This document shows, piece by piece, positions 37,735 through 52,663 of a DNA stretch of 64,000 bases. Origin of the DNA: an uncultured Actinomycetes bacterium (GTDB taxonomy: Bacteria > Actinomycetota > UBA4738 > HRBIN12); the NCBI GenBank assembly GCA_963704725.1, contig OY969934.1, positions 288,001 through 352,000 of the forward strand. Direction: 5' to 3'. The position numbers and the translations under genes were made by a program. Position 1 is the stretch's first letter. Every line of letters begins with the position of its first letter. The notes under the pieces were generated by a model. That model searched no databases. It was not told the DNA's origin and was given only the letters and a program-made list of their open reading frames with translations.

Positions 37735-38571
37735 GTGCCCACGCCGCTCGATCGCACCAGGCAGATCCCGACCGGTCCGGGCAAGGTCACGCTGTGCTGG
37801 CTTGGGCAGGCGGGGTTCGTCGCGCGCGGGCCGGAGGCGACCGTCCTCATCGACCCGTTCCTCTCGCCCCACCGCGGGCGGTTGTACGAGAGCGCCCTCC
37901 CCCCGGCCGAGGCCTCCGGCGTCGACGTCGTGCTCTGCACGCACGAGCACGTCGATCACTTCGACGCGGCGAGCGCGCCGGCCATCGCTAAGGCCTCGCC
38001 CGGCGCGGTCTTCGTGGTGCCCGCTCCGATCGTGGACATGGTGACCGAGGCGGGCATCGCCGCGGAACGCGTGGTGGGGCTTCAGCCGGGGGGCCCCGTC
38101 GAGGTGGCCGGGGTCACGCTCCGCGCCATGCCGGCCATGCACGGGGTCACGATGGCCGACGCGTACGGGTTCGGCGAGGCGCTCTCCGGGGGGATGATCA
38201 GGTTCCTCGGCTACGTGGTGGACCTCGGCGGCGTGCGGCTGTACCACGCGGGCGACACGATCCACTACGAGGGGATGGAGACGCGGCTCCGCGAGCTGTC
38301 GATCGACGTCGCCCTCCTGCCGATCAACGGCCGCGACCCCGAGCGCGAGGGCCGGGACATCGTGGGGAACCTCTCCGAGCGCGAGGCCGCGTGGCTCGCC
38401 GGCGAGATCGACGCGGGCGTGCTCATCCCTATGCACCACGACCTGTTCGAGCGGAACCGCGGCTACCCGGCCCACGTCGTCGAGAGCGTCGAGCGCGAGC
38501 ACCCCGGGACCGCCGTGCTGGTCCCGCCGCGCGAGGTGCCGTTCGTCCTCGCGCCGGCGAGGCCGGCGTGA
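37735..38571 (+). CDS. MBL-fold hydrolase (UlaG-like)
   Basis: WLGQAGF, THEHVDHFD, YHAGDT, LPING, PMHHD. Confidence 0.88.
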   Translation: MPTPLDRTRQIPTGPGKVTLCWLGQAGFVARGPEATVLIDPFLSPHRGRLYESALPPAEASGVDVVLCTHEHVDHFDAASAPAIAKASPGAVFVVPAPIVDMVTEAGIAAERVVGLQPGGPVEVAGVTLRAMPAMHGVTMADAYGFGEALSGGMIRFLGYVVDLGGVRLYHAGDTIHYEGMETRLRELSIDVALLPINGRDPEREGRDIVGNLSEREAAWLAGEIDAGVLIPMHHDLFERNRGYPAHVVESVEREHPGTAVLVPPREVPFVLAPARPA

Positions 38572-39566
38572 ACGCGCTCGTCTACCTCGGCCCCCGGCGG
38601 ATGTCGTGGCAGGAGGAACCCGATCCCGAGCCGGGCCCGGGGGAGGTGGTGATCCGGGCCACGGCCTCGGCCGTGTGCGGCTCCGACCTCCACGGCTTCC
38701 GGGAGGCCAGCCCGCGACGGATCCCCCCGCTCGTCATGGGACACGAGACCGTGGGCCGGATCGACGCGGTGGGCGAGGGCGTGGACGCCTCGCGCATCGG
38801 CGAGCGGGTCGTGCTCAAGCCGATCCTGGCGTGCGGCGCGTGCGACCGGTGTCTCGAGGGACGCGACAACATCTGCCGGCAGGGACGTCTCGTGGGGCGG
38901 GACCTCGCCGGCGGGTTCGCCGAGCGCTTCGCCGTCCCGGCGCCGGCGACGGTCCCGATCGCCGGGGACGTGTCCGACGACGTCGCCACCCTGACCGAGC
39001 CGCTGGCGAACGCCGTCCACGTGACGAGCCGGAGCGTGGCCCTCGGTGACACGGTGCTGGTGATCGGCGCCGGGCCGATCGGCGCGCTCATGGCGCGGAT
39101 GGCCGTCGAGCGCGGGGCATCGGCCGTGTTCTCGGCCGATCGCATCCCCTCGCGCCTGGAGCTCGCTCGGGCGCAGGGCGCCCGGCCGCTCGACCCGGAC
39201 GACCCGGAGGGCTCGATGCGGCGCGAAATCGCCGACGGCGTCGACGTGGTGATCGACGCGGTGGGGGTCGAGGCGACGTGGGCCCTTGGCCTCCGCTCGG
39301 TGCGTCCGGGTGGCCGGATCGAGGTGGTGGGTCTCGGGGCGCCCGCCGGGACGATCGACTTCTTCTCCGTGGTCGGCCGCGAGGTCCAGGTCTCCGGGTC
39401 GTTCGGCTGGACGAGCGAAGACTTCCGCCGCGCGCTCGAGCTCGTCGAGGGCGGCTCGATCGACGTCGCCGGGTGGCTGACGGGCTTCTCGATGGCCGAG
39501 GGTCAGCGCGCGTTCGAGGAGCTCGTCGACGGCACGGCACTGTTCAAGGTGGTCCTCGCTCCTTGA
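38568..39566 (+). CDS. Zn-dependent (sugar alcohol-type) dehydrogenase
   Basis: CGSD, GHE, CxxCxxC..C, GAGPIG. Confidence 0.92.
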   Translation: MNALVYLGPRRMSWQEEPDPEPGPGEVVIRATASAVCGSDLHGFREASPRRIPPLVMGHETVGRIDAVGEGVDASRIGERVVLKPILACGACDRCLEGRDNICRQGRLVGRDLAGGFAERFAVPAPATVPIAGDVSDDVATLTEPLANAVHVTSRSVALGDTVLVIGAGPIGALMARMAVERGASAVFSADRIPSRLELARAQGARPLDPDDPEGSMRREIADGVDVVIDAVGVEATWALGLRSVRPGGRIEVVGLGAPAGTIDFFSVVGREVQVSGSFGWTSEDFRRALELVEGGSIDVAGWLTGFSMAEGQRAFEELVDGTALFKVVLAP

Positions 39567-41594: not shown

Positions 41595-41859
41595 GGGCTC
41601 GAGCGGCAGCCATCGACAGGCCCCTTGAAGATCCGGACCGGCCCACCCGATCGGTCAAGCGCCCGGCGATGGGGCGCAATGCGCTTGACCAGGCCTTTGT
41701 CGAACTGGTCGCCGATCTTGGCACTCCGACCGGTGGTCAACCCTTCCTGGCACACCGGTACTTCAGGTATCACACGCTCAGGGAAGGCTCGAGCAGGTTC
41801 GCCCGGTTGAGAATCCCCTGAGATACCTGGGGTTGAAAGAATGGAACATCGTGCCTAAC

Positions 41860-42102
41860 ATGTCCGAACGCTCGTTCGATGCGGAGCACGGGGAGGAGTC
41901 TCAGGTGATCTCGGAACGCACCCGCAAGCGCCGGGAAGCACTTGAGCGAACCCGGGAGGCTCGCCGCCAGATGCTCGAGGATCCGGCGATCAAGGCGCGG
42001 ACGCGTGAGGTGCTTGACCAGATGGCGGGAGGGGACAAGCCGAAGGAGCCTGGAATCACCAAGGAGAGATTGCCGGACTTCCTTCGTGAGCACAACTCCT
42101 AG
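41860..42102 (+). CDS. small charged helical hypothetical protein in a lower-GC patch
   Basis: Plausible 80-aa ORF with no recognisable motif. Confidence 0.45.
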   Translation: MSERSFDAEHGEESQVISERTRKRREALERTREARRQMLEDPAIKARTREVLDQMAGGDKPKEPGITKERLPDFLREHNS

Positions 42103-42185
42103 TTGGACTCTCGATCCTGATCGACTCGCCGAATCCCTGGCGGAGTGGCACCAAACGAATCCGAGCGTTCCCACAAGGGGTCGAT

Positions 42186-42214
42186 TTGTCTACCGAGCGG
42201 TAGAGATGCATAAT
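42186..42214 (+). promoter_or_regulatory. sigma70 promoter with internal operator palindrome
   Basis: TTGTCT-17 nt-CATAAT, with TCTACCG-AG-CGGTAGA (42189-42204) between the boxes. GTG 7 nt downstream (leaderless). Confidence 0.75.
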
Positions 42215-42221
42215 CTGCCGC

Positions 42222-44510
42222 GTGGTAGAGCCTCGGCGGCCCCGCGCGAGCTCGATCGTGAAGCGGCTCGCGGGCAGGAACGTCCTGGTCACGGGCGTGA
42301 CCGGCTTCCTCGGGCAGGCCGTGTTCGAGCGCCTCCTGAACGACTTCCCCGAGACGCGGATCACGCTGCTGGTCCGGCCCCAGCTCGGCTCGAGCGGGCG
42401 GCAGCGGGTCGAGTCGCTGTTCGGCCGGCCCACCTTCGGAGCCCTCCGGGACAAGCTCGGCAACGAGGGGATGAAGGCGGCCTTCGAGGAGCGGGTCGAG
42501 GTCGTCGACGGCGACTTCTCGCAGGAGGGGCTGGAGATCCCGGGCGGGATCGACGTCGTCATCCACTGCGCGGCCACCGTCTCGTTCGACCCGCCGATAG
42601 ACGAGGGGTTCCTGACGAACCTGCTCGGTGCGGTCCGCTTCTACGAGGCGGTCCTGGCGAGCAACGACGCCCCGCACCTGCTCCACGTCTCGACGGCGTA
42701 CGTGGCGGGCAACCGCAAGGGTGTGATCCCCGAGGCCACGCTCGACCATCGCGTCGACTGGCGGGTCGAGGCCGAGCTCGCGCTCCAGGCCCGCAAAGAC
42801 GTCGAGGCGGCCAGCCGCAAGCCCGAGCTCTTGGACTCGTTCCTGCGCAGGGCGCGAGCCGAGCACGGCCGAGCCGGCCCCCAATCGGTCTCCGACGACG
42901 CCGAGGACCGCCGCAAGACCTGGGTGACCAAGCGCCTCGTCCAGTACGGGCGGGCCCGGGCGCAGACGCTCGGGTGGCCGGACAACTACACGTTCACGAA
43001 GGCCATGGGGGAGCGCGCCGTCGAGGAGACCGCCGCCGCGCACGGCGCGCCGCTATCGATCGTGCGCCCCTCGATCATCGAGTCCGCGTACGCGCACCCG
43101 TTCCCCGGCTGGATCGAGGGCTTCAAGATGGCCGAGCCGATCATCCTGGCGTACGGCCGCGGCACGATCCCCGAGTTCCCCGGCATCCCCGAGGGCATCG
43201 TCGACATCATCCCGGCCGACTACGTGGTGAACGCGATGCTCGCGGCCGCAGCCACCCCGCCCGAGCCGGCGAAGCCCGCCTACTACCACGTGAGCTCGGG
43301 GTCCCGGAACCCCTTGCAGTACAAGGGCCTGTACGAGTACGTGAAGGAGTACTACGAGCGCGACCCGCTGCCACAGCACGGGCGGGGCGACGTGAAGGTA
43401 CCCGAGTGGTCCTTCCCCGGCCATCTCCGCGTGGAGCGGCTCCTCAAGACGGCCGAGCGCGCCGTCGAGGTGGCCGACAAGGTGGTCACCCACCTCCCGA
43501 AGTCGAAGAAGATGCGCGACCTTGTCGGCCGCCTTGATCGCGACAAGGGGCGGGTCGACTTCATCCGGCGCTACTCGGACCTCTACGGTGCGTACACCGA
43601 GGCTGAGGTGATCTACACCGACGACCGCACGGTGGAGCTGTTCGGCTCGCTCACCGCGGCCGACCGCAAGCGGTTCCCGTTCGACTCGGCCGCGATGGAC
43701 TGGCGCTACTACCTCCAGGACGTGCACTGCCCCGCGGTGACGCAGGGGCTGCGGATGCTGTCGAGCGCGCGACTGAAGCCCCAGGTCCGGATCCGCGAGC
43801 GCGAACAGCTCGTCCTGGCGCTCTTCGACATGGAGGGGACGATCCTGCCCTCCAACGTCGTCGAGTCCTACGTGTGGTCGCGCATGGCAGACCTGCCGTG
43901 GGACCAGTGGCCGGATGAGCTCGTCAGCGTGTTCTCGCGGATCCCCTCGTACCTGATGGCCGACCGCCGAGACCGCGGTGAGTTCCTCCGCACGTTCTTC
44001 CGCCGGTACGAGAACGCCACCGTCGAGGGCGTCGACCGGCTCGTAGAGGAGGTCGTGTCGGAGTTCATGCTCCAGAAGGTCTCGGCGGCGGCGGTCCGGC
44101 GGGTCCGCGAGCACCGCGCGCACGGCCACCGCACGATCATGATCACGGCCGCCGCCGAGCCGTTCATCCAGCCGCTCGCGCCGCTGTTCGACGAGGTGGT
44201 GGGGGCTCGGTTGGCGGTCGAGAACGGCATCTACACCGGCTACCTGGCCGAGCCGCCGCTCGTGGGCGAGGCCCGGGGAGCGTGGCTCCGCCGGTACGCC
44301 CTCCTCGAAGGGGCCGACCTGAAGTCGAGCTACGCGTATGCGGACTCGCACTCGGACCTCGCGCTCCTGCGGGCGGTCGGCAACCCCGTCGCCGTGAGCC
44401 CCGACGCGGCGCTCCTGCGCCTGGCCCGCCGCCGCCGGTGGCCGGTCGAGGAGTGGCAGATGGCCGGCGGCATGCCTCGCGTCCGTTTCCCGAAGCCGGC
44501 GGTGCGCTGA
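42222..44510 (+). CDS. fatty acyl-CoA reductase (male-sterility type) fused to HAD-IB hydrolase
   Basis: TGVTGFLG, HVSTAYV, YTFTKAMGE, RPSIIES; C-domain FDMEGT..YADSHSDL..GNPVAV. Confidence 0.9.
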   Translation: MVEPRRPRASSIVKRLAGRNVLVTGVTGFLGQAVFERLLNDFPETRITLLVRPQLGSSGRQRVESLFGRPTFGALRDKLGNEGMKAAFEERVEVVDGDFSQEGLEIPGGIDVVIHCAATVSFDPPIDEGFLTNLLGAVRFYEAVLASNDAPHLLHVSTAYVAGNRKGVIPEATLDHRVDWRVEAELALQARKDVEAASRKPELLDSFLRRARAEHGRAGPQSVSDDAEDRRKTWVTKRLVQYGRARAQTLGWPDNYTFTKAMGERAVEETAAAHGAPLSIVRPSIIESAYAHPFPGWIEGFKMAEPIILAYGRGTIPEFPGIPEGIVDIIPADYVVNAMLAAAATPPEPAKPAYYHVSSGSRNPLQYKGLYEYVKEYYERDPLPQHGRGDVKVPEWSFPGHLRVERLLKTAERAVEVADKVVTHLPKSKKMRDLVGRLDRDKGRVDFIRRYSDLYGAYTEAEVIYTDDRTVELFGSLTAADRKRFPFDSAAMDWRYYLQDVHCPAVTQGLRMLSSARLKPQVRIREREQLVLALFDMEGTILPSNVVESYVWSRMADLPWDQWPDELVSVFSRIPSYLMADRRDRGEFLRTFFRRYENATVEGVDRLVEEVVSEFMLQKVSAAAVRRVREHRAHGHRTIMITAAAEPFIQPLAPLFDEVVGARLAVENGIYTGYLAEPPLVGEARGAWLRRYALLEGADLKSSYAYADSHSDLALLRAVGNPVAVSPDAALLRLARRRRWPVEEWQMAGGMPRVRFPKPAVR

Positions 44511-44601
44511 TGAGAGGGATGGCGCCTTCCGAACGCGGTCGATCTCGAATTCGGTATCGAGTCGTCTCGGGAGGTCTGCATGTGTGCCGGGTGCCGGGCC
44601 G

Positions 44602-45807
44602 ATGACGGTCCAGGCGCTCGAGCTGTTCCGCTCGGCCCCGCGGTACCTGACGGCTCGCGCGGTGGGCGACAGGGTCCCCGGCCTGCTCTCCGGCGCCCTC
44701 GCCCCGATGCGGCTCGTGAACAAGAAGGACCCCGAGGTGAAGGGCCCCGGCTGGGCCCGTGTGCGCCCCCTGCTCTCCGGTATCTGCGGCTCCGACCTCG
44801 CCACGATCAGCGGCAAGTCGAGCTTCTATTTCTCGCCGCTCGTCTCGCTCCCGTTCGTCCCCGGCCACGAGGTCGTGGGCGAGCTGATCGACGACGTCGA
44901 CGACCTCCCCGCCGGCACGCGGATCGCGCTCGAGCCGGTCCTGTCGTGCCTGGCCCGCGGCCTCGACCCGTGCCCGAACTGCGCCGCCGGCCTCACCGGC
45001 CGGTGCGACCGCGTTACCACCGGCCACGTCAGCGCCGGCCTCCAGACCGGGTACTGCGCCGACACCGGCGGGGGCTGGTCGAGGATGTTCGTCGCGCACC
45101 GGTCGCAGCTCCACCCGGTGCCGGACGAGCTCTCCGACCGCCGCGCCGTGCTCGTCGAGCCGCTCTCGTGCGCCGTCCACACCGCGCTCCGCGCGAACGT
45201 CGAGCCGAACGCGAACGTGCTCGTCGTCGGCGCGGGGACGGTCGGCGTCCTCGTCCTCCTCGCGCTGAAGGAGCTGACGAAGGCGGGCCGGATCACCGTC
45301 GTGGCCAAACACGGCGCCCAGCGCGAGTGGGCGAGGGCGTTCGGCGCCACCGAGGTCGTCGACACGAAGGAGGCCACGAACGCCGTCCGCCGCTCGAGCC
45401 ACGCGATGAAGCTGAAGCCCGAGTACGGGCCCTCGTTCCTGCTCGGCGGTGTCGACGTGGCGATCGACTGCGTGGGCTCGAAGGCAAGCCTCGACCTGGC
45501 GCTCCGGACCACCAAGGCGGGCGGGCGCGTCGTTGCGGCCGGCATCCCCGGCCCCGGCGCCGACCTCACGCCGCTGTGGTACCGCGAGCTCGAGCTCGTC
45601 GGCGCCTACACCGGCGGGATCGAGACCGTCGAGGGCGAGCAACGCAGCGCCTTCGACCTCGCCATCGACATCGCCCGCGAGAACCCGATCGACGGGATCG
45701 TCGGCGCGACCTACCCCCTCCCGCGGTGGCGCGAGGCCATCGACCACGCCCTCGGCGCGGGCAAGCTCGGCACGCTCCGCGTGGCCTTCGACCCTCGAAA
45801 GGACTGA
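44602..45807 (+). CDS. Zn-binding dehydrogenase
   Basis: SGICGSD, PGHEVVG, structural Cys cluster, GAGTVG. Confidence 0.9.
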   Translation: MTVQALELFRSAPRYLTARAVGDRVPGLLSGALAPMRLVNKKDPEVKGPGWARVRPLLSGICGSDLATISGKSSFYFSPLVSLPFVPGHEVVGELIDDVDDLPAGTRIALEPVLSCLARGLDPCPNCAAGLTGRCDRVTTGHVSAGLQTGYCADTGGGWSRMFVAHRSQLHPVPDELSDRRAVLVEPLSCAVHTALRANVEPNANVLVVGAGTVGVLVLLALKELTKAGRITVVAKHGAQREWARAFGATEVVDTKEATNAVRRSSHAMKLKPEYGPSFLLGGVDVAIDCVGSKASLDLALRTTKAGGRVVAAGIPGPGADLTPLWYRELELVGAYTGGIETVEGEQRSAFDLAIDIARENPIDGIVGATYPLPRWREAIDHALGAGKLGTLRVAFDPRKD

Positions 45808-45815
45808 GACCAACC

Positions 45816-47402
45816 ATGGCGCGACCGGGTTTCGTGTTGGAAGTCGACGAGCGGACGCCTCCGCTCCTCGTCCACCAGGGCGAGGGGTTCCGGCTCCAGA
45901 AGTTCCCGCTCGGCTCGCGGGTGATCTACCCGCCGGACTCGCTCCCGGCGATCCGCAACGTCCGCGGCGCGATCCGCCACGCCCTCGAGCACCCCGTCGA
46001 CGCCGAGCCCCTCCGCGAGTTGCTCACGCCCGGCATGAAGCTCACGATCGCGATCGACGACGTCTCGCTCCCGCTCCCGCCGATGCGGAGCCCCGACGTC
46101 CGCCAGCTCGTGCTCGAGGAGGTCATCGAGCTCGCGGCCCACGAGGGCGTCGAGGACGTCAAGCTCTACATGGCCAACTCGCTGCATCGCCGGATGACCG
46201 CCGACGAGATCAAGCACGCCGTCGGCGAGCGCGTGTTCCGCTCGTTCTACCCGAAGGACCTCAAGAACCACGACGCCGAGGACCGCGACAACCTCGTCTT
46301 CGTCGGCACCACCGACCAGGGCGAGGAGGTCGAGCTCAACAAGCGGGCCATGGAGTCGGACCTGCTCGTCTACGTGAACATCAACCTCGTGGCCATGGAC
46401 GGTGGCCACAAGGCCGTGCCGGTCGGCCTGGCGAGCTACCGCAGCGTCCGCCATCACCACAACGTGCACACGATGCTGCACTCGAAGTCGTACATGGACC
46501 CCCGGCCCGGGCGCTCGGCGATCCACGACTCGTGCGCCCGGATGGGCCTCGTGCTGAAGGACGCCGGTCTGAAGATCTTCCAGATCGAGACCACGCTGAA
46601 CAACGAGACCTTCCCCAAGCCCTTCGGCTTCATGAACAAGCGCGAGTGGGAATGGTCGCTGATCGAGCAGGGCACGTACCTCGCGGCGAAGAAGGCCAAC
46701 GAGCTCGGCCCGAGCGCAGCCAAGCACCAGATCTGGACGCGGATCGAGTCGCCCTACGGCGTGACCGGGGTCAACGCCGGCGCCGTCGACGGCGTGCACG
46801 AGCGGACGCTGGCCCGCTTGCACGAGCAGCAGCTCGTCGAGGTGCAGGGCCAGAGCGACGTCATGGTGATCGGCCTGCCGTACGTCGGCCCGTACAACGT
46901 GCACTCGATCATGAACCCGATCCTCGTGCACTGCCTGGGGCTCGGCTACCTGTTCAACATGTACCGGAACAAGCCGGTGGTGCGGCCGGGCGGCGTGATG
47001 ATCCTGTTCCACCCGATGCCGAACGAGTTCCACCAGGTCCACCACCCGAGCTACGTCGACTTCTTCGAGGAGGTCCTGGCCGAGACCACCGACCCCAGCA
47101 CGATCGAGTCGAAGTACGAGGAGCGGTACGCCACCGACCCCTGGTACATACACCTGTACCGCAAGAGCTACGCGTACCACGGCGTGCACCCCTTCTACAT
47201 GTGGTACTGGGGCGCGCACGCGCTCGACTACCTCGGCGACGTGGTGGTGGTCGGCGGTGACGCCAAGGTGTGCGAGCGCCTGGGCTACCGGGCGGCGTCG
47301 AGCTTCCGCGACGCGCTCGAGATGGCCGGCGAGAAGGTGGGCCGCTCGCCCTCGATCAGCTACCTCCACGTGCCCCCGTTGGCGATCGCGGACGTGCGAT
47401 GA
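45816..47402 (+). CDS. lactate racemase (LarA/DUF2088)-domain protein
   Basis: ALEHPV..PLRELL..IAIDDVSLP, ANSLHRRMT, NHDAED, GGHK. Confidence 0.8.
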   Translation: MARPGFVLEVDERTPPLLVHQGEGFRLQKFPLGSRVIYPPDSLPAIRNVRGAIRHALEHPVDAEPLRELLTPGMKLTIAIDDVSLPLPPMRSPDVRQLVLEEVIELAAHEGVEDVKLYMANSLHRRMTADEIKHAVGERVFRSFYPKDLKNHDAEDRDNLVFVGTTDQGEEVELNKRAMESDLLVYVNINLVAMDGGHKAVPVGLASYRSVRHHHNVHTMLHSKSYMDPRPGRSAIHDSCARMGLVLKDAGLKIFQIETTLNNETFPKPFGFMNKREWEWSLIEQGTYLAAKKANELGPSAAKHQIWTRIESPYGVTGVNAGAVDGVHERTLARLHEQQLVEVQGQSDVMVIGLPYVGPYNVHSIMNPILVHCLGLGYLFNMYRNKPVVRPGGVMILFHPMPNEFHQVHHPSYVDFFEEVLAETTDPSTIESKYEERYATDPWYIHLYRKSYAYHGVHPFYMWYWGAHALDYLGDVVVVGGDAKVCERLGYRAASSFRDALEMAGEKVGRSPSISYLHVPPLAIADVR

Positions 47403-48304
47403 GCTTCGTCGACGAGATCCGCGACGTCGCCAAGGGCTGGCGGTGGGGCCGCCGGACGATGACCCCGCGCTCGGCCCTCGAGTCGACGCCGCCGCCCAAG
47501 CGCTGGGACTTCCCCACGGACTGGGCCAGGACCGACGCGGCCGGCGTGGCGCGGGACGTGATCCTGGACTACGGGATCAAGTCGATCATCTGGAACGAGA
47601 CGAGCCCCGAGGTCTTCGGCCTCGACAACCTCGAGGGGCTGAAGGGCCCGGTGATGTTCATCTCGAACCACTCGAGCCACCTCGACGCGTCGATCCTCAT
47701 GGTCACGCTGCCGAAGGACTGGCGCGAGAAGACCGCGACCGCGGCGGCCAAGGACTACTTCTTCGACGTGTGGTGGCGCTCGGCGTTCACGGCGCTCGTG
47801 TACGCGGGCTTCCCGGTCGAGCGCGGCGCCGGCGAGCGGGCCACGGCCAAGGCCAAGGAGCTGATCCGCGACGGCTGGAACATCATCGTGTTCCCCGAGG
47901 GGACGAGGTCGGTCGACGGCTGGCTCCAGCGCTTCCGCCACGGGACGGCCAAGCTGGCCCTCGAGATGCACATGCCGGTGATGCCGGTGGCGATCGTCGG
48001 CGCATACGCGGCGATGCCGAAGGGCCGGTCCTGGCCCAAGCCGGGCCGGCCGCCGATCCGGGTCCGGTACGGCAAGCCGCTGTTCCCGGCCGAGGGCGAG
48101 ACGCACCAGCAGCTCTCGCTCCGGATGCAGCAGGCCGTGGCCGAGCTGTTCGACGAGGACCGCACGAGCTGGTTCGAGGCCCAGCAGCGCGCCGCCCGCG
48201 GCGAGACCCCCAAGATGACCGGCCCCCAGGGCCCCGGCTGGCTCCGGACCTGGGAGGGCACGAGGCCGATCCGCCGCAGCGGCAAGCCCCCGGTCTGGAA
48301 GTGA
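47399..48304 (+). CDS. PlsC-type lysophospholipid acyltransferase
   Basis: NHSSHLD (HX4D), FPEGTRS. Confidence 0.93.
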   Translation: MSFVDEIRDVAKGWRWGRRTMTPRSALESTPPPKRWDFPTDWARTDAAGVARDVILDYGIKSIIWNETSPEVFGLDNLEGLKGPVMFISNHSSHLDASILMVTLPKDWREKTATAAAKDYFFDVWWRSAFTALVYAGFPVERGAGERATAKAKELIRDGWNIIVFPEGTRSVDGWLQRFRHGTAKLALEMHMPVMPVAIVGAYAAMPKGRSWPKPGRPPIRVRYGKPLFPAEGETHQQLSLRMQQAVAELFDEDRTSWFEAQQRAARGETPKMTGPQGPGWLRTWEGTRPIRRSGKPPVWK

Positions 48305-48308
48305 TCAG

Positions 48309-48917
48309 GTGACGCGCACGGGCGGCGAGGTCCGGCGCCACGCGCTCATCGAGGAGGCCATCCGCGCGTTCGGCCGCGAGGGCTACTCGGGCGCGAGCCT
48401 CGAGCAGATCGCGACCGCCGTCGGGATCCGCAAGCAGACCCTCCTGTACTACTTCCCGACCAAGGATGCGCTCCTCGAGGCGTGCCTCCAGGCCGCCGGT
48501 CAGCGCGTCGCCCAGGACGTCGTCGCCGCCCTCGAGGGCAAGGAGACCTACTGGGACCGGGCCGAGGCGGTCATCCACGCCGTCTTCCGCCTCGCCGAGG
48601 AGTGGCCCGAGTTCCCCATGTTCGTTCGGGAGGCGGGTCGGCTCGGCGCCGAGGGGTTCGAACGGTTCGCGAGCGTGATCGACCCGCTGAGGAAGCGGGC
48701 AGTGGACTTCCTCCAGGCCGGGATGGATGCGGGGGAGATCCGAGAGCAGGACCCCGCGTTGCTGCTGTTCATGCTGTACACGGCGGTGGTGGGATCGCTC
48801 ACTGAGGCGAGCGTCCTGAATGCCGTGGTCGGAAAGGACAGGAGCCGCGCTTCACTTCGTCGGCGTGAACGAGAGGTTGTCTCGTTCGTTCGGGGCGCCC
48901 TGGCGCCCGCCGTGTAG
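48309..48917 (+). CDS. TetR/AcrR regulator
   Basis: GYSGASLEQIATAVGIRKQTLLYYFPTKDAL. Confidence 0.93.
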   Translation: MTRTGGEVRRHALIEEAIRAFGREGYSGASLEQIATAVGIRKQTLLYYFPTKDALLEACLQAAGQRVAQDVVAALEGKETYWDRAEAVIHAVFRLAEEWPEFPMFVREAGRLGAEGFERFASVIDPLRKRAVDFLQAGMDAGEIREQDPALLLFMLYTAVVGSLTEASVLNAVVGKDRSRASLRRREREVVSFVRGALAPAV

Positions 48918-48939: not shown

Positions 48940-49326
48940 CTAGGCAGTTTGCGCGAGGCGCCTGGGATTGCCCGTGAAGCTCTCCTCGTGCGCCACACCC
49001 GTCACCGAAACAGGGGCCTGCTGTGCTGACGTCACGGCCTCTCGCAAGGCGGCCAGGAGGTTGTTGCTTGTCCCGGTTCCTGCCTCGACCGTGTACCTGG
49101 GGCTGAGGTAGGCCTTGAGCGCTTGCCGCACCACATCTGAGTAGCTGACGTCGAGGTCTCTTGCGGCACGCCGCAGTAGTTCTGCATCTTCTGAAGACAA
49201 GCGGACGGTAATTGTGGCGCCCAGTGGTCGGCGCGGGGCGCCGGCTTCAGACGTCTCGTCCTCACCCCACACATTCGAGTCGTCCTTGTGAGCCTGGTAG
49301 AAGGCTGCGCGCTCCATATCCGACAT
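48940..49326 (-). CDS. RHH/CopG-like antitoxin with C-terminal extension
   Basis: TITVRLSSEDAELLRRAA..SYSDVVRQAL, downstream of a BrnT-like gene. Confidence 0.7.
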   Translation of the reverse strand: MSDMERAAFYQAHKDDSNVWGEDETSEAGAPRRPLGATITVRLSSEDAELLRRAARDLDVSYSDVVRQALKAYLSPRYTVEAGTGTSNNLLAALREAVTSAQQAPVSVTGVAHEESFTGNPRRLAQTA

Positions 49327-49341: not shown

Positions 49342-49626
49342 TCACTTCGCCAAGTACTTCGCTTCCTCTTCCTTCGTAGGCCGCCAGCCGGTAACTGCCC
49401 TAAGCCACAGCGTCCGTTCGTTCATCGAGACCACGATCGTAAGCGGTCGGCCAGCGTCGGTGCGACCGACCATCTTCCAGTCTGCGCTCCCGCCGGCCTT
49501 ATTCGGAGCCCACTTGGGTGCGTTCCAGAAGACTTCCTCGACTTCCCAAGGGCGGATCTCGTGTGCCGCAAGCTCGCTCTCGTTCGCTTCATCCCACTCC
49601 AACCCCTCGCTGTCCCTTGGGTGCAC
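49342..49626 (-). CDS. BrnT-like ribonuclease toxin
   Basis: LEWDEAN..HEI..EVEEVF..GRTDAGRPLTIV..RAVTGW..EE..Y. Confidence 0.8.
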   Translation of the reverse strand: MHPRDSEGLEWDEANESELAAHEIRPWEVEEVFWNAPKWAPNKAGGSADWKMVGRTDAGRPLTIVVSMNERTLWLRAVTGWRPTKEEEAKYLAK

Positions 49627-49661
49627 TTGTCAACTCCCGCCATCTGTCTTACACTTCAGCC

Positions 49662-49679
49662 CAGAATGTAATACATCTG
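49662..49679. promoter_or_regulatory. palindrome in the divergent TA/DUF6941 promoter
   Basis: CAGA-ATGTA-A-TACAT-CTG in an AT-rich spacer. Confidence 0.5.
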
Positions 49680-49694
49680 AAAGGGGTCGACAAC

Positions 49695-50120
49695 ATGCAG
49701 GTTGACTACGTGGTCCTGGCGGATGCCGCCGTGACGGCGGACGGGAAGCACTACATCCACGGTGCTGGGTGGGACACGATCTACGCGGCGGCGTTCCCAG
49801 TGCAACACCCGCTGCTTGCCGTGGCTGTGCGGCTCCGAGTGCCGTGGACGGCGACGAACCAGCCCCATTCGCTGGAGTTGGATATCGTCGATGAGGACGG
49901 GCGCTCAGCGTTGCCGGAGCCGCCAGGCGTGCTGAAGGGTGAAATCAACGTTGGCCGACCGCCTCAACTGCAGCCGTCCCAAGACCAAGTTGTCCCCCTG
50001 ACCTTCAATCTGCGGTCGCTCACCTTTGAGAAGCCAGGAGGCTACTCCGTTGTGGTCCGCGTCGACGGAAGCGAGGAAGGAAGATCGCCATTCAAGGTCG
50101 CTGAAGTGCTTGGTGGCTGA
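49695..50120 (+). CDS. DUF6941-like protein
   Basis: VLADAA..GKHYIHGAGWD..LRVPW..PGGYSVVVRVDG. Family name from recognition only. Confidence 0.7.
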   Translation: MQVDYVVLADAAVTADGKHYIHGAGWDTIYAAAFPVQHPLLAVAVRLRVPWTATNQPHSLELDIVDEDGRSALPEPPGVLKGEINVGRPPQLQPSQDQVVPLTFNLRSLTFEKPGGYSVVVRVDGSEEGRSPFKVAEVLGG

Positions 50121-50165: not shown

Positions 50166-50855
50166 CTAGGGGCCCGCCAGGAGATGCTCGAGGCCATCCA
50201 GGATCAGGTCGAGCGCGAACTCGAACTCGAACTGGTCGTCGCACCCCTCGCCGACCACCGCGCCGCCCTCGTCGTGCGTCCCCATGGCCACCGGGATCAG
50301 CTTCGCGATGTTCGGGTAGGCGTCGGCCATCTGCGTCCACATCTCGGCCGCTTCCTCCTCGGGCATGCTCGACGTGTCGTCGAACAGCTCCTGCGAGAAC
50401 CCCAGGATCCGACTGCCCATCACGTGCATCGCGTGGTGCGTCAGGTCGATCGAGAAGCCGCCGGCGAGGAAGACGCCCATCATCGAGTCCATGTAGGCGA
50501 TGACGGTCGGCGTCGGCTCGCCGCGGGACTCGAGCACGCGCGAGGCCCAGGGGTGGCGCAGCAGCGCGCGTCGGGCGGACAGGATCCGCTCGCGCATCGT
50601 CGTCTTCCACTCCGCGCCCTCGATCGGCGGGTCGATCTCGCCGACGACGACGTCGATCATCCCGTCGAGGAGCTCGCCCTTGTCGGCGACGTGTTTGTAG
50701 AGCGCCATCGGCACGACGCCGAGCTCCTGGGCGATCCGCCGCATGCTGATCGACTCGACGCCGCCCTCGTCGGCCAGGGCCACCGCCGCCCGGAGGATCC
50801 GCTCGCGGCTGAGCGGCTCGCGGGGACGTGCCTCGACCTCGGCCTTCGCGCTCAT
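50166..50855 (-). CDS. TetR regulator (TetR_C type)
   Basis: LSRERIL..SMRRIAQELGVVPMALYKHV..FEFALDLILDGL. Confidence 0.93.
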   Translation of the reverse strand: MSAKAEVEARPREPLSRERILRAAVALADEGGVESISMRRIAQELGVVPMALYKHVADKGELLDGMIDVVVGEIDPPIEGAEWKTTMRERILSARRALLRHPWASRVLESRGEPTPTVIAYMDSMMGVFLAGGFSIDLTHHAMHVMGSRILGFSQELFDDTSSMPEEEAAEMWTQMADAYPNIAKLIPVAMGTHDEGGAVVGEGCDDQFEFEFALDLILDGLEHLLAGP

Positions 50856-50878
50856 CTCACCCCCGTCCGGAATCTGAC

Positions 50879-50934
50879 TTGACGAGTGTACGACGTACAC
50901 CCTAGGATACGCGCGCAGGTGTACGGCGTACACC
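50879..50934 (+). promoter_or_regulatory. promoter with two TetR-type operators
   Basis: GTGTACGACGTACAC (50886-50900) and GTGTACGGCGTACAC (50919-50933); TTGACG-18 nt-TAGGAT. Confidence 0.8.
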
Positions 50935-50988
50935 AGCGAACGAGGGGCCGGCGGAGGGGCTCGCCGGCGGGACGGATCGGAGGGATCC

Positions 50989-51681
50989 ATGGCTTCGGAG
51001 AGACGGCTCGCGAGGATCGCAGGTCTGCTGTACCTGGCGGTCGCCGTGCTCGGCGGCTTCGCGGAGCTCTACGTGCGCGACCGCATCGTCGAGCTCGGGG
51101 ACCCGGCCGCGACGGCCGGGAACATCCGGGCGTCGGCCACGCTGTTCCGCGCCGGATTCGTCGCGGACCTCGCCCAGGCGACGATCTTCCTGTTCACCGC
51201 GATGGCGCTGTACCTGCTGCTCCGCGGCGTGAACGAGCTGGTGGCGCGCGCGATGGTCGTCATCGTCGCGGTGAGCGTCGCGATCATGTGCCTGAACCTG
51301 CTCAACCAGTTCACGGCGCTCCAGCTCGCCACCGGCGAGACGGCCGGATCCGCCGCCCAGGCGGGGCTGTTCGCCGAGATGCACCACGCCGGGTACCTGA
51401 TCGCGCAGGTCTTCTTCGGCCTGTGGCTGCTGCCGCTCGGCTACCTGGTCGTGCGGTCCGGATGGTTCCCGAAGGCGATCGGCGTCCTGCTGATCGCGGG
51501 GTGCTTCGGCTACCTGATCGACACGTTCGCGCGGTTCCTGGCTCCGAGCGTCGCGGACGGGATCGGGGCGGTCGTCCTCGTGCCGGCGGCGATCGGGGAG
51601 CTGTCGTTCGTGGCCTGGTTGCTCGTCAAGGGCGTGCGCGTCCGCGAGCGCGACGCGCTCGTGCCCGCGGTGGCGGCGTAG
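50989..51681 (+). CDS. DUF4386 membrane protein
   Basis: ARIAGLLYL..FFGLWLLPLGYL..GEL..WLLVKG. Confidence 0.85.
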   Translation: MASERRLARIAGLLYLAVAVLGGFAELYVRDRIVELGDPAATAGNIRASATLFRAGFVADLAQATIFLFTAMALYLLLRGVNELVARAMVVIVAVSVAIMCLNLLNQFTALQLATGETAGSAAQAGLFAEMHHAGYLIAQVFFGLWLLPLGYLVVRSGWFPKAIGVLLIAGCFGYLIDTFARFLAPSVADGIGAVVLVPAAIGELSFVAWLLVKGVRVRERDALVPAVAA

Positions 51682-51700
51682 GTCGAGAGAGGAGATGGCG

Positions 51701-52663
51701 ATGAAGGCGATCGTGCAGGACAGGTACGGGACCGCGGACGTGCTCGAGTTCCGGGACGTGCCGGAGCCGGACGTGGGGGAGGGCGAGGTCCGCATCCGGG
51801 TGCGGGCGGCGGGCGCGGGGCCCGACGTGTGGCACCTCATGACGGGGCAGCCGTACTTCGCGCGGCTCATGCCGGGGTTCCGGAAGATCTGGGGGCACCC
51901 CCGCGGCCGCGACGTGGCCGGCGTCGTCGAGTCCGTCGGCGCGAAGGTCACCGGGCTCGCGCCCGGCGACGAGGTGATGGGCATCGCCGAGGGCACGTTC
52001 GCCGAGCTCGCGGTGGGCACGGCCGAGCTCGTCGTCCCCAAGCCGTCGAGGCTCTCGTTCGAGGAGGCCGCCGCGGCGCCGATCTCGGGCCTCACGGCGG
52101 TCCAGGCGATCCGCGATTTCGCGAAGGTGAAGCCCGGGCAGCGCGTGCTCGTGATCGGCGCGGGCGGCGGCGCCGGCACCCTGACCGTGCAGGTCGCGAA
52201 GGCCTTCGGCGCCCACGTCACCGGGGTGGCGAGCACGTCGAAGCTCGAGCTCGTGCGCTCGGTCGGCGCCGACGAGGTCATCGACTACACGCGCCAGGAG
52301 CTCGCCGGCCGGTGGGACGCGATCGTCGACACGGCCGGCCGGCGTCCGCTCCGCGTGCTCCGCAAGCTCCTCACGCCGACCGGTGTGCTCGGGATCGTCG
52401 GCGGCGACGGCGGCGGGCGGTGGACGGGCGGGTTCTTCCGCCAGGTCCTCCGCGCGCCGATCGTCTCGCTGTTCACGAGGCAGCGGCTCGGCCCGGTGAT
52501 CGCGAAGGAGAAGGGCGAGGACCTGCGCGCGCTCGCCGAGCTGATCGAGCGCGGCGACGTCACGCCGGTCGTCGGCCGGACGTTCCCGCTGATCGAGGCC
52601 GCCGACGCGATCCGCCACATCGAGGGCGGTCACGCCGCCGGCAAGGTCGTCGTGACGGTCTGA
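51701..52663 (+). CDS. NAD(P)-dependent MDR oxidoreductase (quinone reductase-like)
   Basis: MKAIVQDRYG, GRDVAGVV, GAGGGAG, GHAAGKVVV. Confidence 0.92.
   Translation: MKAIVQDRYGTADVLEFRDVPEPDVGEGEVRIRVRAAGAGPDVWHLMTGQPYFARLMPGFRKIWGHPRGRDVAGVVESVGAKVTGLAPGDEVMGIAEGTFAELAVGTAELVVPKPSRLSFEEAAAAPISGLTAVQAIRDFAKVKPGQRVLVIGAGGGAGTLTVQVAKAFGAHVTGVASTSKLELVRSVGADEVIDYTRQELAGRWDAIVDTAGRRPLRVLRKLLTPTGVLGIVGGDGGGRWTGGFFRQVLRAPIVSLFTRQRLGPVIAKEKGEDLRALAELIERGDVTPVVGRTFPLIEAADAIRHIEGGHAAGKVVVTV

What the first reader, a model, noticed from the sequence alone, without database searches (positions are those of the whole stretch)
42222..48917. FAR-HAD / Zn-dehydrogenase / LarA-like / PlsC operon: probable actinobacterial ether-lipid pathway using a racemase-fold enzyme
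Seen: fatty acyl-CoA reductase fused to a HAD phosphatase (variant DME motif), an MDR dehydrogenase, a LarA-fold protein retaining His and the GGxK lysine, an acyltransferase and a TetR. Established: alkyl-ether synthesis needs a fatty alcohol, acylation, acyl/alkyl exchange, ketone reduction and dephosphorylation, and the Myxococcus elb cluster supplies FAR and acyltransferase domains in ElbD. My recollection that ElbB is LarA/DUF2088-like needs verifying. Inference: a split, rearranged elb-like system without the acyl-CoA synthetase/ACP module, in which the LarA-fold protein forms the ether bond or epimerises the glycerol backbone. No larB/C/E cofactor genes are in the window. This is the best candidate for an undescribed system here.
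Basis: partly seen in the sequence, partly recalled or inferred. Interest (0 to 1): 0.8.

Follow-up and report, generated by a model that had tools for sequence, protein, structure and literature searches.

The report
Actinobacterial elb-like lipid operon, LarA-type enzyme
This is a real, widely conserved actinobacterial operon whose parts match the myxobacterial ether-lipid (elb) genes, and its best-conserved enzyme is a relative of nickel-dependent lactate racemase, which may carry out the still unknown ether-forming step.

Summary
Five co-directional genes sit at the stated coordinates: a FAR-HAD fusion, a Zn-dehydrogenase (MDR), a LarA homologue (LarAH), a PlsC-type acyltransferase and a TetR.

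- **Synteny:** the first four keep this order in 59 of 59 related loci with enough flank.
- **LarAH family:** it scores 887.9 bits against NCBIfam LarAH14/15/16 (cut-off 740). It keeps the cofactor Lys, the Ni-binding His and one catalytic His. Asn replaces the second catalytic His.
it was off by one gene. ElbB is a HAD phosphatase. ElbC (MXAN_1529) is the LarA homologue.
- **Match to elb:** elb-type loci read HAD, LarAH, then FAR-ACS-ACP-acyltransferase, then SDR. This operon is a split version that lacks ACS-ACP and has an MDR where elb has an SDR.
- **Cofactor genes:** larB/C/E lie 1 Mb away in this genome and directly beside the operon in 22 of 80 loci. Five related carriers lack all three.

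No ether lipid has been shown for any carrier, and the LarAH's role is inferred. No paper in the library links lactate racemase to ether lipids. Earlier notes of this scan reached the same reading on other genomes.

The parts
42186..42214 (+). Promoter-like site (TTGTCT, 17 nt spacer, CATAAT) ending 8 nt before the FAR-HAD start codon. A consensus match only.
   Evidence: 2 sites found against a mean of 0.4 in shuffles. Sequence read.
42222..44510 (+). Fatty acyl-CoA/ACP reductase (NAD_binding_4 plus Sterile/FAR_C) fused to a HAD-IB phosphatase domain. HAD motif I reads DxE (FDMEGT).
   Evidence: Pfam. NCBIfam TIGR01490 HAD-IB 101.3 bits, cut-off 98.3. Translation. One open frame in 63 of 63 related loci. 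It is the only FAR-type match in the own genome to the elb-type FAR domain at E<=1e-4.
44584..45807 (+). Medium-chain Zn-dependent dehydrogenase of the polyol / polyol-phosphate / threonine dehydrogenase branch. The start codon is not proven.
   Evidence: Pfam ADH_N plus ADH_zinc_N. Best solved relatives are 4ej6, ketose reductase 1e3j, galactitol-1-phosphate 5-dehydrogenase 4a2c and sorbitol dehydrogenase 1pl6. GICGSD, PGHE, a Cys-rich loop and EPLSC are read. Homologues align from residues 1-11 in many loci.
45816..47402 (+). LarA homologue of the LarAH14/15/16 family, the counterpart of ElbC. It keeps D81/D82, H124, K199 and H214/H215, and has Asn190 where LarA has its second catalytic His.
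   Evidence: NF052592 887.9 bits, cut-off 740. PDB 9q2u E 1e-31 over both domains. Residue counts over 78 actinobacterial and 69 elb-type sequences. It is the most conserved protein of the operon, with median identity 67%.
47399..48304 (+). PlsC/AGPAT-type acyltransferase with NHSSHLD (HX4D) and FPEGTRS motifs. Its start overlaps the LarAH stop (ATGA).
   Evidence: Pfam PF01553. Translation. DNA. Best own-genome match to the acyltransferase domain of elb-type ElbD-like proteins.
48309..48917 (+). TetR-family regulator starting 5 nt after the acyltransferase stop.
   Evidence: Pfam TetR_N. Weak NCBIfam matches to FasR and FadR, below cut-offs. Found downstream in 26 of 67 loci with enough flank, and in 8 of 8 close relatives.

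Best explanation
The five genes are one operon and form the actinobacterial, split version of the myxobacterial elb ether-lipid system. It most likely makes a 1-O-alkyl-glycerol-type lipid.

Shown here:
- Four enzymes (FAR-HAD, MDR, LarAH, PlsC) are inherited as a fixed cassette.
- The FAR, HAD, LarAH and acyltransferase parts each have their counterpart in elb-type clusters.
- NPN synthesis genes are in the genome, and sit next to the operon in other lineages.

Inferred pathway:
1. The FAR domain reduces an acyl thioester to a fatty aldehyde, or to the alcohol.
2. The aldehyde forms a hemiacetal with the sn-1 hydroxyl of glycerol 3-phosphate.
3. The LarAH takes the hydride from glycerol C2 onto NPN, with H124 as the base. 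After loss of water it returns the hydride to the former aldehyde carbon. This gives 1-O-alkyl-dihydroxyacetone phosphate without net redox and without an AGPS enzyme.
4. The MDR reduces the 2-keto group.
5. PlsC acylates sn-2.
6. The HAD domain removes the phosphate.
7. TetR senses a lipid ligand and regulates the operon.

The step assigned to the LarAH is the least certain part.
For: - **Synteny:** 59 of 59 loci with both flanks. It scored over cut-off in 72 of 301 sampled genomes of the phylum. No other window ORF is conserved beside it.
- **Elb link from papers:** MXAN_1529 is LarAH Group 15, and elbC is MXAN_1529 by the locus-tag range. The Group 15 context is COG0560 100%, COG0451 150% and COG1022 75%. 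The Group 14 context is COG0204, COG0560 and COG1063 at 88% each and COG3320 at 50%.
- **Elb link from tools:** in elb-type loci HAD is directly upstream in 42 of 51, FAR directly downstream in 33 of 53, and FAR plus acyltransferase in 21 of 31. Domain content was confirmed on L094 and L091. The best own-genome hits fall inside the operon.
[quoted passage not shown] It reports that an i15:0 aldehyde was seen in wild type but not in elbD mutants, and that fatty alcohols were not detected.
- **Cofactor residues:** H124, K199, H214 and H215 are invariant in 78 of 78 actinobacterial sequences. H124, K199 and H215 are invariant in 69 of 69 elb-type sequences, and H214 in 68 of 69.
- **Cofactor genes:** larB, larC and larE are all over cut-off in the own genome. 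They are adjacent to the operon in 22 of 80 loci, confirmed by curated models on L028 and L044. The LarAH is the only Lar_N match in 4 of 5 cultured carriers, and all 5 have LarC.
- **Nearest solved relatives:** these bind NPN, have a single His plus Asn, and lie among triose- and hexose-phosphate genes.
- **MDR:** its relatives act on polyols and polyol phosphates.
Against: - No ether lipid is reported for any carrier in what I could search. These searches gave only ElbD-homologue hits in MAGs.
- PMC11868695 notes that Pontiella carries ElbD homologues yet showed no ether lipids.
- ElbC has never been tested alone. The elbB insertion phenotype was put down to polar effects.
- LarAH14 of Frankia showed no activity in seven alpha-hydroxyacid assays. 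This excludes those substrates and does not support any other.
- Five carriers of the window's own family (92-98% complete) have intact operons and invariant cofactor residues but no LarB, LarC or LarE over cut-off. A sixth, G287, lacks LarB and LarC.
- LarB is common in the phylum even without any LarA-family hit, in 144 of 229 genomes by my tally. Its presence is therefore weak evidence.
- The MDR is not homologous to ElbE/ElbA, and the ACS-ACP module is absent from the operon.
- The hydride-shuttle step is my inference. No tool result bears on it directly.
Confidence: 0.5

Rival explanations
1. The operon and lipid context are as above, but the LarAH is a stereo-inverting enzyme. It would epimerise the C2 hydroxyl of glycerol phosphate, or of a lyso-lipid, through the 2-keto intermediate. 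A second base would come from the His/Tyr-rich C-terminal domain. The product would be a glycerolipid of unusual backbone configuration, with or without an ether bond.
For: Inversion at a hydroxyl-bearing carbon is the only chemistry shown for the LarA superfamily (abstracts and passages). H399, H410, H455, H458, Y413, Y444 and Y448 are invariant in both cluster types and could supply a second base. The MDR resembles polyol-phosphate dehydrogenases.
Against: The residue at the second-His position is Asn, Thr or Ser (N 55, T 22, S 1 of 78). The structural paper argues that such enzymes cannot run a two-base racemisation. This reading leaves the ether bond of the ElbD route without an enzyme. 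The M. xanthus ether phospholipids are written with the ordinary sn-glycero-3-phospho configuration in the review legend.
Confidence: 0.17
2. The LarAH is a functional analogue of alkyl-DHAP synthase (AGPS). PlsC would acylate DHAP, the FAR would make a fatty alcohol, and the LarAH would exchange acyl for alkyl on acyl-DHAP, with the electrophilic C4 of NPN playing the part of the flavin. The MDR would then reduce the ketone and the HAD would dephosphorylate.
For: The enzyme set (FAR, acyltransferase, ketoreductase, phosphatase) mirrors the mammalian and MXAN_1676 route described in PMC9131029. No AGPS gene sits in the elb or actinobacterial cassettes. The FAR carries the Sterile/FAR_C domain, which by my recollection is typical of alcohol-forming reductases.
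Against: Fatty alcohols were not detected, and an aldehyde was, in the ElbD work as reviewed. No covalent carbon adduct chemistry is known for NPN in what I read. I did not search the own genome for an AGPS.
Confidence: 0.1
3. The LarAH of this branch works without the nickel-pincer cofactor, either with another ligand on the conserved Lys/His or as a non-redox or scaffold subunit of the lipid enzymes.
For: Five carriers with intact operons have no LarB, LarC or LarE over cut-off and still keep every cofactor residue. [quoted passage not shown] The two Group 16 Frankia sequences shown have Gly at the Lys184 position, and Group 16 neighbours are PlsC and HAD.
Against: larBCE directly abut the operon in 22 of 80 loci from several families. 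The LarAH is the sole Lar_N protein in 4 of 5 cultured carriers that have LarC. The cofactor residues are invariant. The nearest solved relative was purified with NPN bound.
Confidence: 0.1
4. The LarAH is an ordinary 2-hydroxyacid racemase that merely lies next to lipid genes.
For: It belongs to the LarA superfamily.
Against: Synteny is fixed in 59 of 59 loci, and its stop overlaps the acyltransferase start. It lacks the second catalytic His, and the Group 14 signature has Ile at the Arg75 position. The Frankia member was inactive on seven hydroxyacid reactions.
Confidence: 0.03

Closest known systems
Myxococcus xanthus elbABCDE ether-lipid operon (MXAN_1531 to MXAN_1527; Lorenzen et al. 2014). 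I know it here only through the reviews PMC9131029 and PMC13012113, because the original paper is not held.
   Same: It has a FAR domain with NAD_binding_4 plus Sterile, a HAD PF12710 phosphatase (ElbB), a LarA homologue of the same NCBIfam family (ElbC; 43-51% identity to the window's protein in elb-type loci), an AGPAT-type acyltransferase domain and an NAD(P)-dependent reductase.
   Different: Here FAR is fused to HAD rather than to ACS-ACP-AT, and the acyltransferase is a separate gene. No ACS or ACP is in the operon. An MDR Zn-dehydrogenase stands where elb has SDR-type ElbA/ElbE (0 of 80 elb-type loci have an MDR hit). HAD motif I is mostly DxE instead of DxD. A TetR is attached. The host phylum is Actinomycetota.
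LarAH14 of Frankia sp. (Franean1_4168), Group 14 of Desguin et al. 2020 (PMC7583248)
   Same: It is the same family and has the same neighbours: COG0204, COG0560 and COG1063 at 88% each and COG3320 at 50%. It has the same signature, with Asp, His108, Lys184 and His200 kept and His174 missing.
   Different: None in kind; the window's gene is a further member. The paper lists the group as 'Unknown function', found no activity in seven assays and does not mention lipids in its main text (0 occurrences).
LarA_Sp and LarA_Bw (PDB 9q2u/9q3k and 9q3j; PMC12611868)
   Same: These are the best solved relatives (E 1e-31 and 1e-27, both domains aligned). They have a single catalytic His, Asn at the second-His position, Lys-tethered NPN and a His-coordinated Ni.
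   Different: They belong to another subfamily of about 500 aa whose neighbours are glycolytic and sugar genes. Nothing links them to lipids, and their substrate is unknown.
AGPS-dependent ether-lipid route (FAR1, GNPAT, AGPS, acyl/alkyl-DHAP reductase; also MXAN_1676-1674)
   Same: The logic is the same: a fatty-acyl reductase, an acyltransferase, a ketone reduction on a DHAP-derived backbone and later dephosphorylation.
   Different: No AGPS gene is in the cassette. The LarA homologue is the only enzyme without an assigned step.
Plant GPAT4/GPAT6, bifunctional HAD-phosphatase plus PlsC acyltransferases (recalled from memory, from no call)
   Same: A HAD-type phosphatase is coupled to a PlsC-type acyltransferase acting on glycerol phosphate lipids.
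   Different: They have no reductase and no LarA homologue, and their products are ester-linked.

Membership tests
LarA superfamily, LarAH14/15/16 family (NCBIfam NF052592) | Score over the curated family cut-off across the full length | tested here: met
   887.9 bits against a cut-off of 740; residues 6-528 on profile positions 1-520.
LarA superfamily, LarAH14/15/16 family (NCBIfam NF052592) | Lys that tethers NPN (Lys184 of LarA; Lys195 of LarA_Sp) | tested here: met
   K199 aligns with K195 of 9q2u. It is invariant in 78 of 78 and 69 of 69 sequences.
LarA superfamily, LarAH14/15/16 family (NCBIfam NF052592) | His that coordinates Ni (His200 of LarA), and the first catalytic His (His108) | tested here: met
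   H215 and H124 align with the corresponding residues of 9q2u. Both are invariant in 78 of 78 and 69 of 69.
LarA racemases/epimerases in the strict sense (two-base proton-coupled hydride transfer) | Second catalytic His (His174 of LarA) | tested here: not met
   Asn190 aligns with Asn185 of LarA_Sp. The position is N 55, T 22, S 1 of 78 actinobacterial sequences and N in 69 of 69 elb-type sequences. Desguin's signature shows a gap there.
LarA superfamily | NPN synthesis genes larB, larC and larE in the same genome | tested here: met
   All three are over cut-off at C1:1332749-1335398. Across relatives the result is mixed: adjacent in 22 of 80 loci, LarB in 63 of 72 carriers (my tally), and none of the three in 5 carriers.
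LarA superfamily | Bound NPN/Ni and hydride-transfer activity | not testable with these tools
   This needs purified protein from an NPN-producing host.
elb-type ether-lipid cluster | ElbC-type LarA homologue next to an ElbB-type HAD (PF12710) | tested here: met
   The HAD domain is in the gene two upstream, fused to FAR. In elb-type loci HAD is directly upstream of the LarAH in 42 of 51.
elb-type ether-lipid cluster | FAR domain (NAD_binding_4 plus Sterile) and AGPAT-type acyltransferase domain | tested here: met
   Both are present as parts of separate genes. They are the best own-genome matches to the ElbD-like FAR and acyltransferase domains.
elb-type ether-lipid cluster | Acyl-CoA synthetase and ACP module of ElbD | tested here: not met
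   No AMP-binding or PP-binding domain is in the operon. The best ACS matches lie elsewhere in the genome.
elb-type ether-lipid cluster | SDR-type NAD epimerase/dehydratase (ElbE, ElbA) | tested here: not met
   The operon has an MDR instead. The best SDR match is at C1:1281476-1282447, outside the window.
elb-type ether-lipid cluster | Alkyl or alkenyl ether lipid as the product | not testable with these tools
   This needs lipid analysis of carriers and mutants.
HAD-IB phosphatases | Motif I DxDxT, with a nucleophile Asp and an acid/base Asp | tested here: inconclusive
   The window reads D-M-E-G-T. DxE is the commonest form among the 73 actinobacterial copies, with a DxD minority. In elb-type copies, 46 of 47 are DxD. 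TIGR01490 scores 101.3 bits, just over its 98.3 cut-off. Whether Glu can act as the acid/base was not tested.
MDR Zn-dependent polyol/threonine dehydrogenases | GroES-like and Rossmann domains with catalytic-Zn ligands and a Cys-rich structural-Zn loop | tested here: met
   Both Pfam domains are present. GICGSD, PGHE, EPLSC and the loop with four Cys align with 4ej6. The roles of the motifs are recalled. No NCBIfam equivalog cut-off was reached.
AGPS (alkyl-DHAP synthase) route | An FAD-dependent AGPS gene | not tested
   None is in the cassette. I did not search the genome for one.

The most novel reading that the evidence does not exclude
The LarAH14/ElbC family is the missing, AGPS-independent ether-bond-forming enzyme of aerobic bacteria. 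It would use the nickel-pincer nucleotide as an internal hydride shuttle to turn a fatty aldehyde plus glycerol 3-phosphate into 1-O-alkyl-DHAP, a redox-neutral reductive etherification. That would be the first non-racemase chemistry and the first lipid role for this cofactor. It would make about a quarter of sampled Actinomycetota genomes (72 of 301) potential ether-lipid producers.
Probability: 0.22. Interest if true: 0.9.

Novelty: new variant of a known kind. Interest (0 to 1): 0.72.

Why it matters
How the ElbD pathway makes its ether bond is an open question: the review PMC9131029 calls these steps unknown. The one gene of that operon without an assigned function belongs to the nickel-pincer LarA superfamily. 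Its actinobacterial counterpart is the most conserved protein of a four-gene cassette found in many cultured genera, including Micromonospora, Actinomadura, Actinoplanes and Frankia relatives.

This makes the question testable by knock-outs, lipidomics and assays of cofactor-loaded enzyme. A positive result would do three things:
- extend nickel-pincer chemistry beyond racemisation;
- explain LarA homologues with a single catalytic His;
- add Actinomycetota to the possible sources of alkyl glycerol ethers in soils and sediments.

If the product proves not to be an ether lipid, the cassette still defines an undescribed, widespread lipid pathway.

Tried and rejected
- **'ElbB is LarA-like':** rejected. 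ElbB is a HAD and ElbC is the LarA homologue.
- **Plain 2-hydroxyacid racemase:** rejected on fixed synteny, the missing second His and the Frankia assays.
- **Further conserved neighbours:** tblastn of all window ORFs of at least 100 aa between 33000 and 57000 against the 80 loci gave only the operon genes, their shadow frames and an MDR paralogue.
- **Literature searches that gave nothing useful:** 'lactate racemase' with 'ether lipid' returned 0 papers. A broad five-term search and a six-term actinobacteria search were dominated by unrelated papers. 'ElbD' with 'Actinobacteria' (6 papers) and 'glycerol ether', 'Actinobacteria', 'monoalkyl' (5 papers) showed only ElbD-homologue counts in MAGs.
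- **Papers and supplements not seen:** Lorenzen 2014 is not held. Supplements of bioRxiv preprints and of PMC11868695 were not read and may list actinobacterial elb-like clusters.
- **larBCE on elb-type metagenome records:** these records are not held. Within their flanks no larB/C/E was found in 0 of 80 loci at E<=1e-15. I could not reach a Myxococcus genome, so whether M. xanthus has larBCE stays open.
- **Not run:** no structure, fold search or complex prediction, because sequence matches to solved structures were already strong and I make no binding claim.
- **Words search of earlier findings:** it failed on word count and I did not repeat it.

Full report
**1. What is in the window**

The region is about 70% G+C, so many shadow frames appear. 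Domain searches pick out five co-directional genes.
- **FAR-HAD, 42222-44510:** a 762-aa protein with NAD_binding_4, Sterile and HAD PF12710 domains.
- **MDR, 44584-45807:** a medium-chain Zn-dehydrogenase.
- **LarAH, 45816-47402:** a 528-aa protein with the lactate racemase N-terminal domain.
- **PlsC, 47399-48304:** a PlsC-type acyltransferase.
- **TetR, 48309-48917**.

The acyltransferase ATG overlaps the LarAH stop as ATGA. A promoter-like hexamer pair ends 8 nt before the first start codon; it is a consensus match only.
- The HAD motif I reads FDMEGT.
- The acyltransferase has NHSSHLD and FPEGTRS.
- The MDR has the Zn-ligand motifs of the polyol/threonine dehydrogenase branch. Its best solved relatives include ketose reductase, galactitol-1-phosphate 5-dehydrogenase and sorbitol dehydrogenase.

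**2. The LarA-like protein**

It scores 887.9 bits against NCBIfam NF052592, 'NPN-dependent hydroxyacid isomerase, LarAH14/15/16 family' (cut-off 740). Its best solved relatives are 9q2u and 9q3j (E 1e-31 and 1e-27, both domains aligned). These are the two single-histidine LarA homologues of PMC12611868, one of which was solved with the nickel-pincer nucleotide bound to Lys195 (passages and sections 2.5 and 2.6 read).

From that alignment:
- H124 is the retained catalytic His.
- K199 is the cofactor Lys.
- H215 is the Ni ligand.
- Asn190 takes the place of the second catalytic His.

I aligned 78 actinobacterial sequences (the window, 69 of the 80 species-genome loci and 8 fetched relatives) and 69 elb-type sequences. 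I kept only full-length tblastn hits without stops, so 11 loci of each 80-locus set were dropped before counting.
- D81, D82, H124, N188, K199 and H215 are invariant in both sets. H214 is invariant in the actinobacterial set and is His in 68 of 69 elb-type sequences.
- H399, H410, Y413, Y444, R449, H455, H458, Y461, W463 and W465 in the C-terminal domain are also invariant in both.

The family is catalogued. Desguin et al. 2020 (PMC7583248) list it as Group 14, 'Unknown function'. They tested the Frankia member in seven alpha-hydroxyacid reactions and found no activity (passages; supplement passages).

**3. The cassette is conserved**

The best 80 loci come from uncultured Actinomycetota and from Actinomadura, Micromonospora, Actinoplanes, Actinoallomurus, Phytohabitans, Wenjunlia, Streptomyces synnematoformans, Haloechinothrix, Frankiaceae, Pseudonocardiaceae and Acidimicrobiaceae.

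Local tblastn with the window's proteins gave these counts:
- FAR, HAD and MDR in order upstream in 61 of 61 loci with at least 3.7 kb upstream.
- The acyltransferase downstream in 74 of 74 loci with at least 1 kb downstream.
- Both in 59 of 59 loci with both flanks.
- TetR downstream in 26 of 67.
- FAR and HAD in one open frame in 63 of 63.

Median identity to the window's proteins is 67% for the LarAH, 58% for the MDR, 55% for the HAD part, 53% for the FAR part and 47% for PlsC. The LarAH is therefore the most constrained member. No other window ORF is conserved beside the cassette. In a sample of 301 genomes of the phylum, 72 have a match over the family cut-off. This count includes the unpublished genomes G088, G226 and G148.

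**4. The link to the elb operon**

The review PMC9131029 (passages) says ElbB is a HAD-like phosphohydrolase, ElbC has unknown function, ElbA and ElbE are NAD-dependent epimerase/dehydratase proteins, and ElbD carries FAR, ACS, ACP and AGPAT-like parts. PMC13012113 (passage) gives elbA to elbE as MXAN_1531 to MXAN_1527, so elbC is MXAN_1529. The Desguin dataset lists MXAN_1529 as LarAH Group 15.

Their gene-context table reads:

| LarAH group | Neighbouring COGs |
|---|---|
| Group 14 | COG0204 88%, COG0560 88%, COG1063 88%, COG3320 50% |
| Group 15 | COG0560 100%, COG0451 150%, COG1022 75% |
| Group 16 | COG0204 100%, COG0560 100% |

I checked this with tools. A 48%-identical representative from a cluster that includes a Myxococcales MAG protein drew 80 metagenome loci. 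In these loci:
- HAD lies directly upstream of the LarAH in 42 of 51.
- A FAR domain lies directly downstream in 33 of 53.
- FAR plus an acyltransferase domain 3-5.5 kb downstream occurs in 21 of 31.
- No locus has an MDR hit (0 of 80).

Pfam on L094 and L091 shows HAD, then Lar_N, then a protein of about 1600 aa, then an SDR. That protein carries NAD_binding_4, AMP-binding, PP-binding and Acyltransferase; the Sterile domain was scored only in L094. In reverse, the best match in the whole own genome to each elb-type HAD, LarAH, FAR domain and acyltransferase domain falls inside this operon. The ACS and SDR parts match elsewhere.

Other arrangements exist:
- L139 has a stand-alone FAR, ACP-ACS, HAD, LarAH, SDR and a diacylglycerol-kinase-like gene.
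- L131 has only the HAD-LarAH pair among unrelated genes, and L110 looks the same on the three ORFs scanned.

HAD plus LarAH is thus the constant core.

**5. The cofactor question**

The own genome has larE, larC and larB side by side at C1:1332749-1335398, all over cut-off. It also has a second, canonical LarA homologue at C1:2233175, so their presence alone proves little.

Evidence for a link with the cofactor:
- In 22 of 80 actinobacterial loci larB/C/E directly abut the cassette, upstream or downstream. These include Actinomadura, Micromonospora, Actinoplanes, Actinoallomurus, Wenjunlia, Haloechinothrix, Thermomonospora and Pseudonocardiaceae.
- Curated models confirm LarC, LarB and LarE on L028, and LarC and LarB on L044. 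The LarE frame I chose on L044 scored below cut-off.
- In five cultured carriers LarC is present in 5 of 5, and the LarAH is the only Lar_N match in 4 of 5.

Evidence against an obligate link:
- By my hand tally, LarB is in 63 of 72 carriers and in 144 of 229 non-carriers. That is only a modest enrichment among related genomes.
- Nine carriers lack LarB.
- For five of them (G183, G116, G014, G222, G074; 92-98% complete, 2-40 contigs) LarC is absent in 5 of 5, and LarB and LarE are below cut-off in 5 of 5.
- G287 also lacks LarC.
- G059 and G261 have LarC at contig ends, so their LarB may simply be unassembled.
- G196 has only a partial LarC-like match.
- The eight operons fetched from LarB-lacking carriers are intact, one of them cut off inside FAR by the contig end, and keep every cofactor residue.

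I cannot explain this.

**6. How it most likely works**

Shown:
- the fixed cassette;
- the part-by-part correspondence with elb;
- the retained cofactor residues;
- the physical link to larBCE in many lineages.

From the literature:
- The elb operon is needed for most alkyl and vinyl ether lipids in M. xanthus.
- The steps up to the alkyl ether are unknown.
- An aldehyde, not an alcohol, was detected.

Inferred pathway:
1. The FAR domain supplies a fatty aldehyde.
2. The LarAH oxidises C2 of a glycerol-phosphate hemiacetal and returns the hydride to the former aldehyde carbon after dehydration. This gives alkyl-DHAP.
3. The MDR reduces the ketone.
4. PlsC acylates sn-2.
5. The HAD domain dephosphorylates.

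This scheme uses every enzyme once and needs only one catalytic base. It fits a cofactor whose known role is transient hydride storage. It also fits the phosphate-metabolite neighbourhoods of the nearest solved relatives.

The rivals are:
- an epimerase of the glycerol C2;
- an AGPS-like acyl/alkyl exchange;
- a cofactor-independent role.

None is excluded.

**7. Novelty**

No paper in the searched library holds both 'lactate racemase' and 'ether lipid'. The LarA papers I searched do not mention lipids. The ether-lipid papers I read call ElbC unknown or screen only ElbD. The gene context itself has been in a supplementary table since 2020. I therefore rate this a new variant of a known kind.

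Eight earlier notes of this scan on other genomes reached the same reading. I saw them after my own, and they are not independent evidence.

**8. Limits**

- The original ElbD paper was not available.
- I did not read the supplements of the preprints or of PMC11868695.
- I could not search a Myxococcus genome.
- No product is known for any carrier.

Noticed in passing
P0183 (947 aa; representative of a 13-member cluster): A LarAH-family domain (residues about 107-634) is followed by a chlorophyll a/b-binding domain (PF00504, E 7e-37). This suggests a eukaryotic algal homologue or a merged gene model.
   Followed up: partly
L139:3030-12632: A third arrangement of the same parts: stand-alone FAR (with Sterile), ACP-ACS, HAD, LarAH, SDR epimerase, then a diacylglycerol-kinase-like gene (DAGK_cat plus YegS_C).
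   Followed up: partly
L131:7975-10560 and L110:8244-10560: In L131 the HAD-LarAH pair stands among unrelated genes (amylase, RecA, semialdehyde dehydrogenase). In L110 only two flanking ORFs were scanned, and both are unrelated. The pair is thus the constant core, and the other parts can be unlinked.
   Followed up: partly
L110:11109-12041: An ORF downstream of the HAD-LarAH pair matches Pfam ATLF, the anthrax lethal factor N/C domain family (E 9e-15). It is an incidental hit on a metagenome contig.
   Followed up: no
G000:C1:221274-221981 (outside the window): A second, partial LarC-like frame matches profile positions 1-239 of 375, apart from the complete larB-larC-larE cluster. G196 has a similar partial match as its only LarC hit.
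   Followed up: no
G000:C1:2233175-2233771 (outside the window): A second, canonical-length LarA homologue (429-aa frame, Lar_N E 1e-45). It could be the main client of the genome's larBCE.
   Followed up: no
window 38391-39566 (+), 51695-52663 (+), 50166-50990 (-): Two further MDR Zn-dehydrogenase genes and a second TetR gene lie near the operon. The first MDR explains weak tblastn hits to the MDR gene of related loci.
   Followed up: partly
window 41861-42103 (+): A small ORF of about 80 codons lies just upstream of the operon. A promoter-like site at 41833-41861 ends at its ATG. No family search was run on it.
   Followed up: no
L094:6177-7367 (-): A radical SAM gene lies just upstream of the elb-type cluster on this contig.
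   Followed up: no
window 48940-49326 (-) and 49518-50120 (+): A ribbon-helix-helix (CopG) gene and a DUF6941 gene follow the TetR. Neither is conserved with the cassette.
   Followed up: partly
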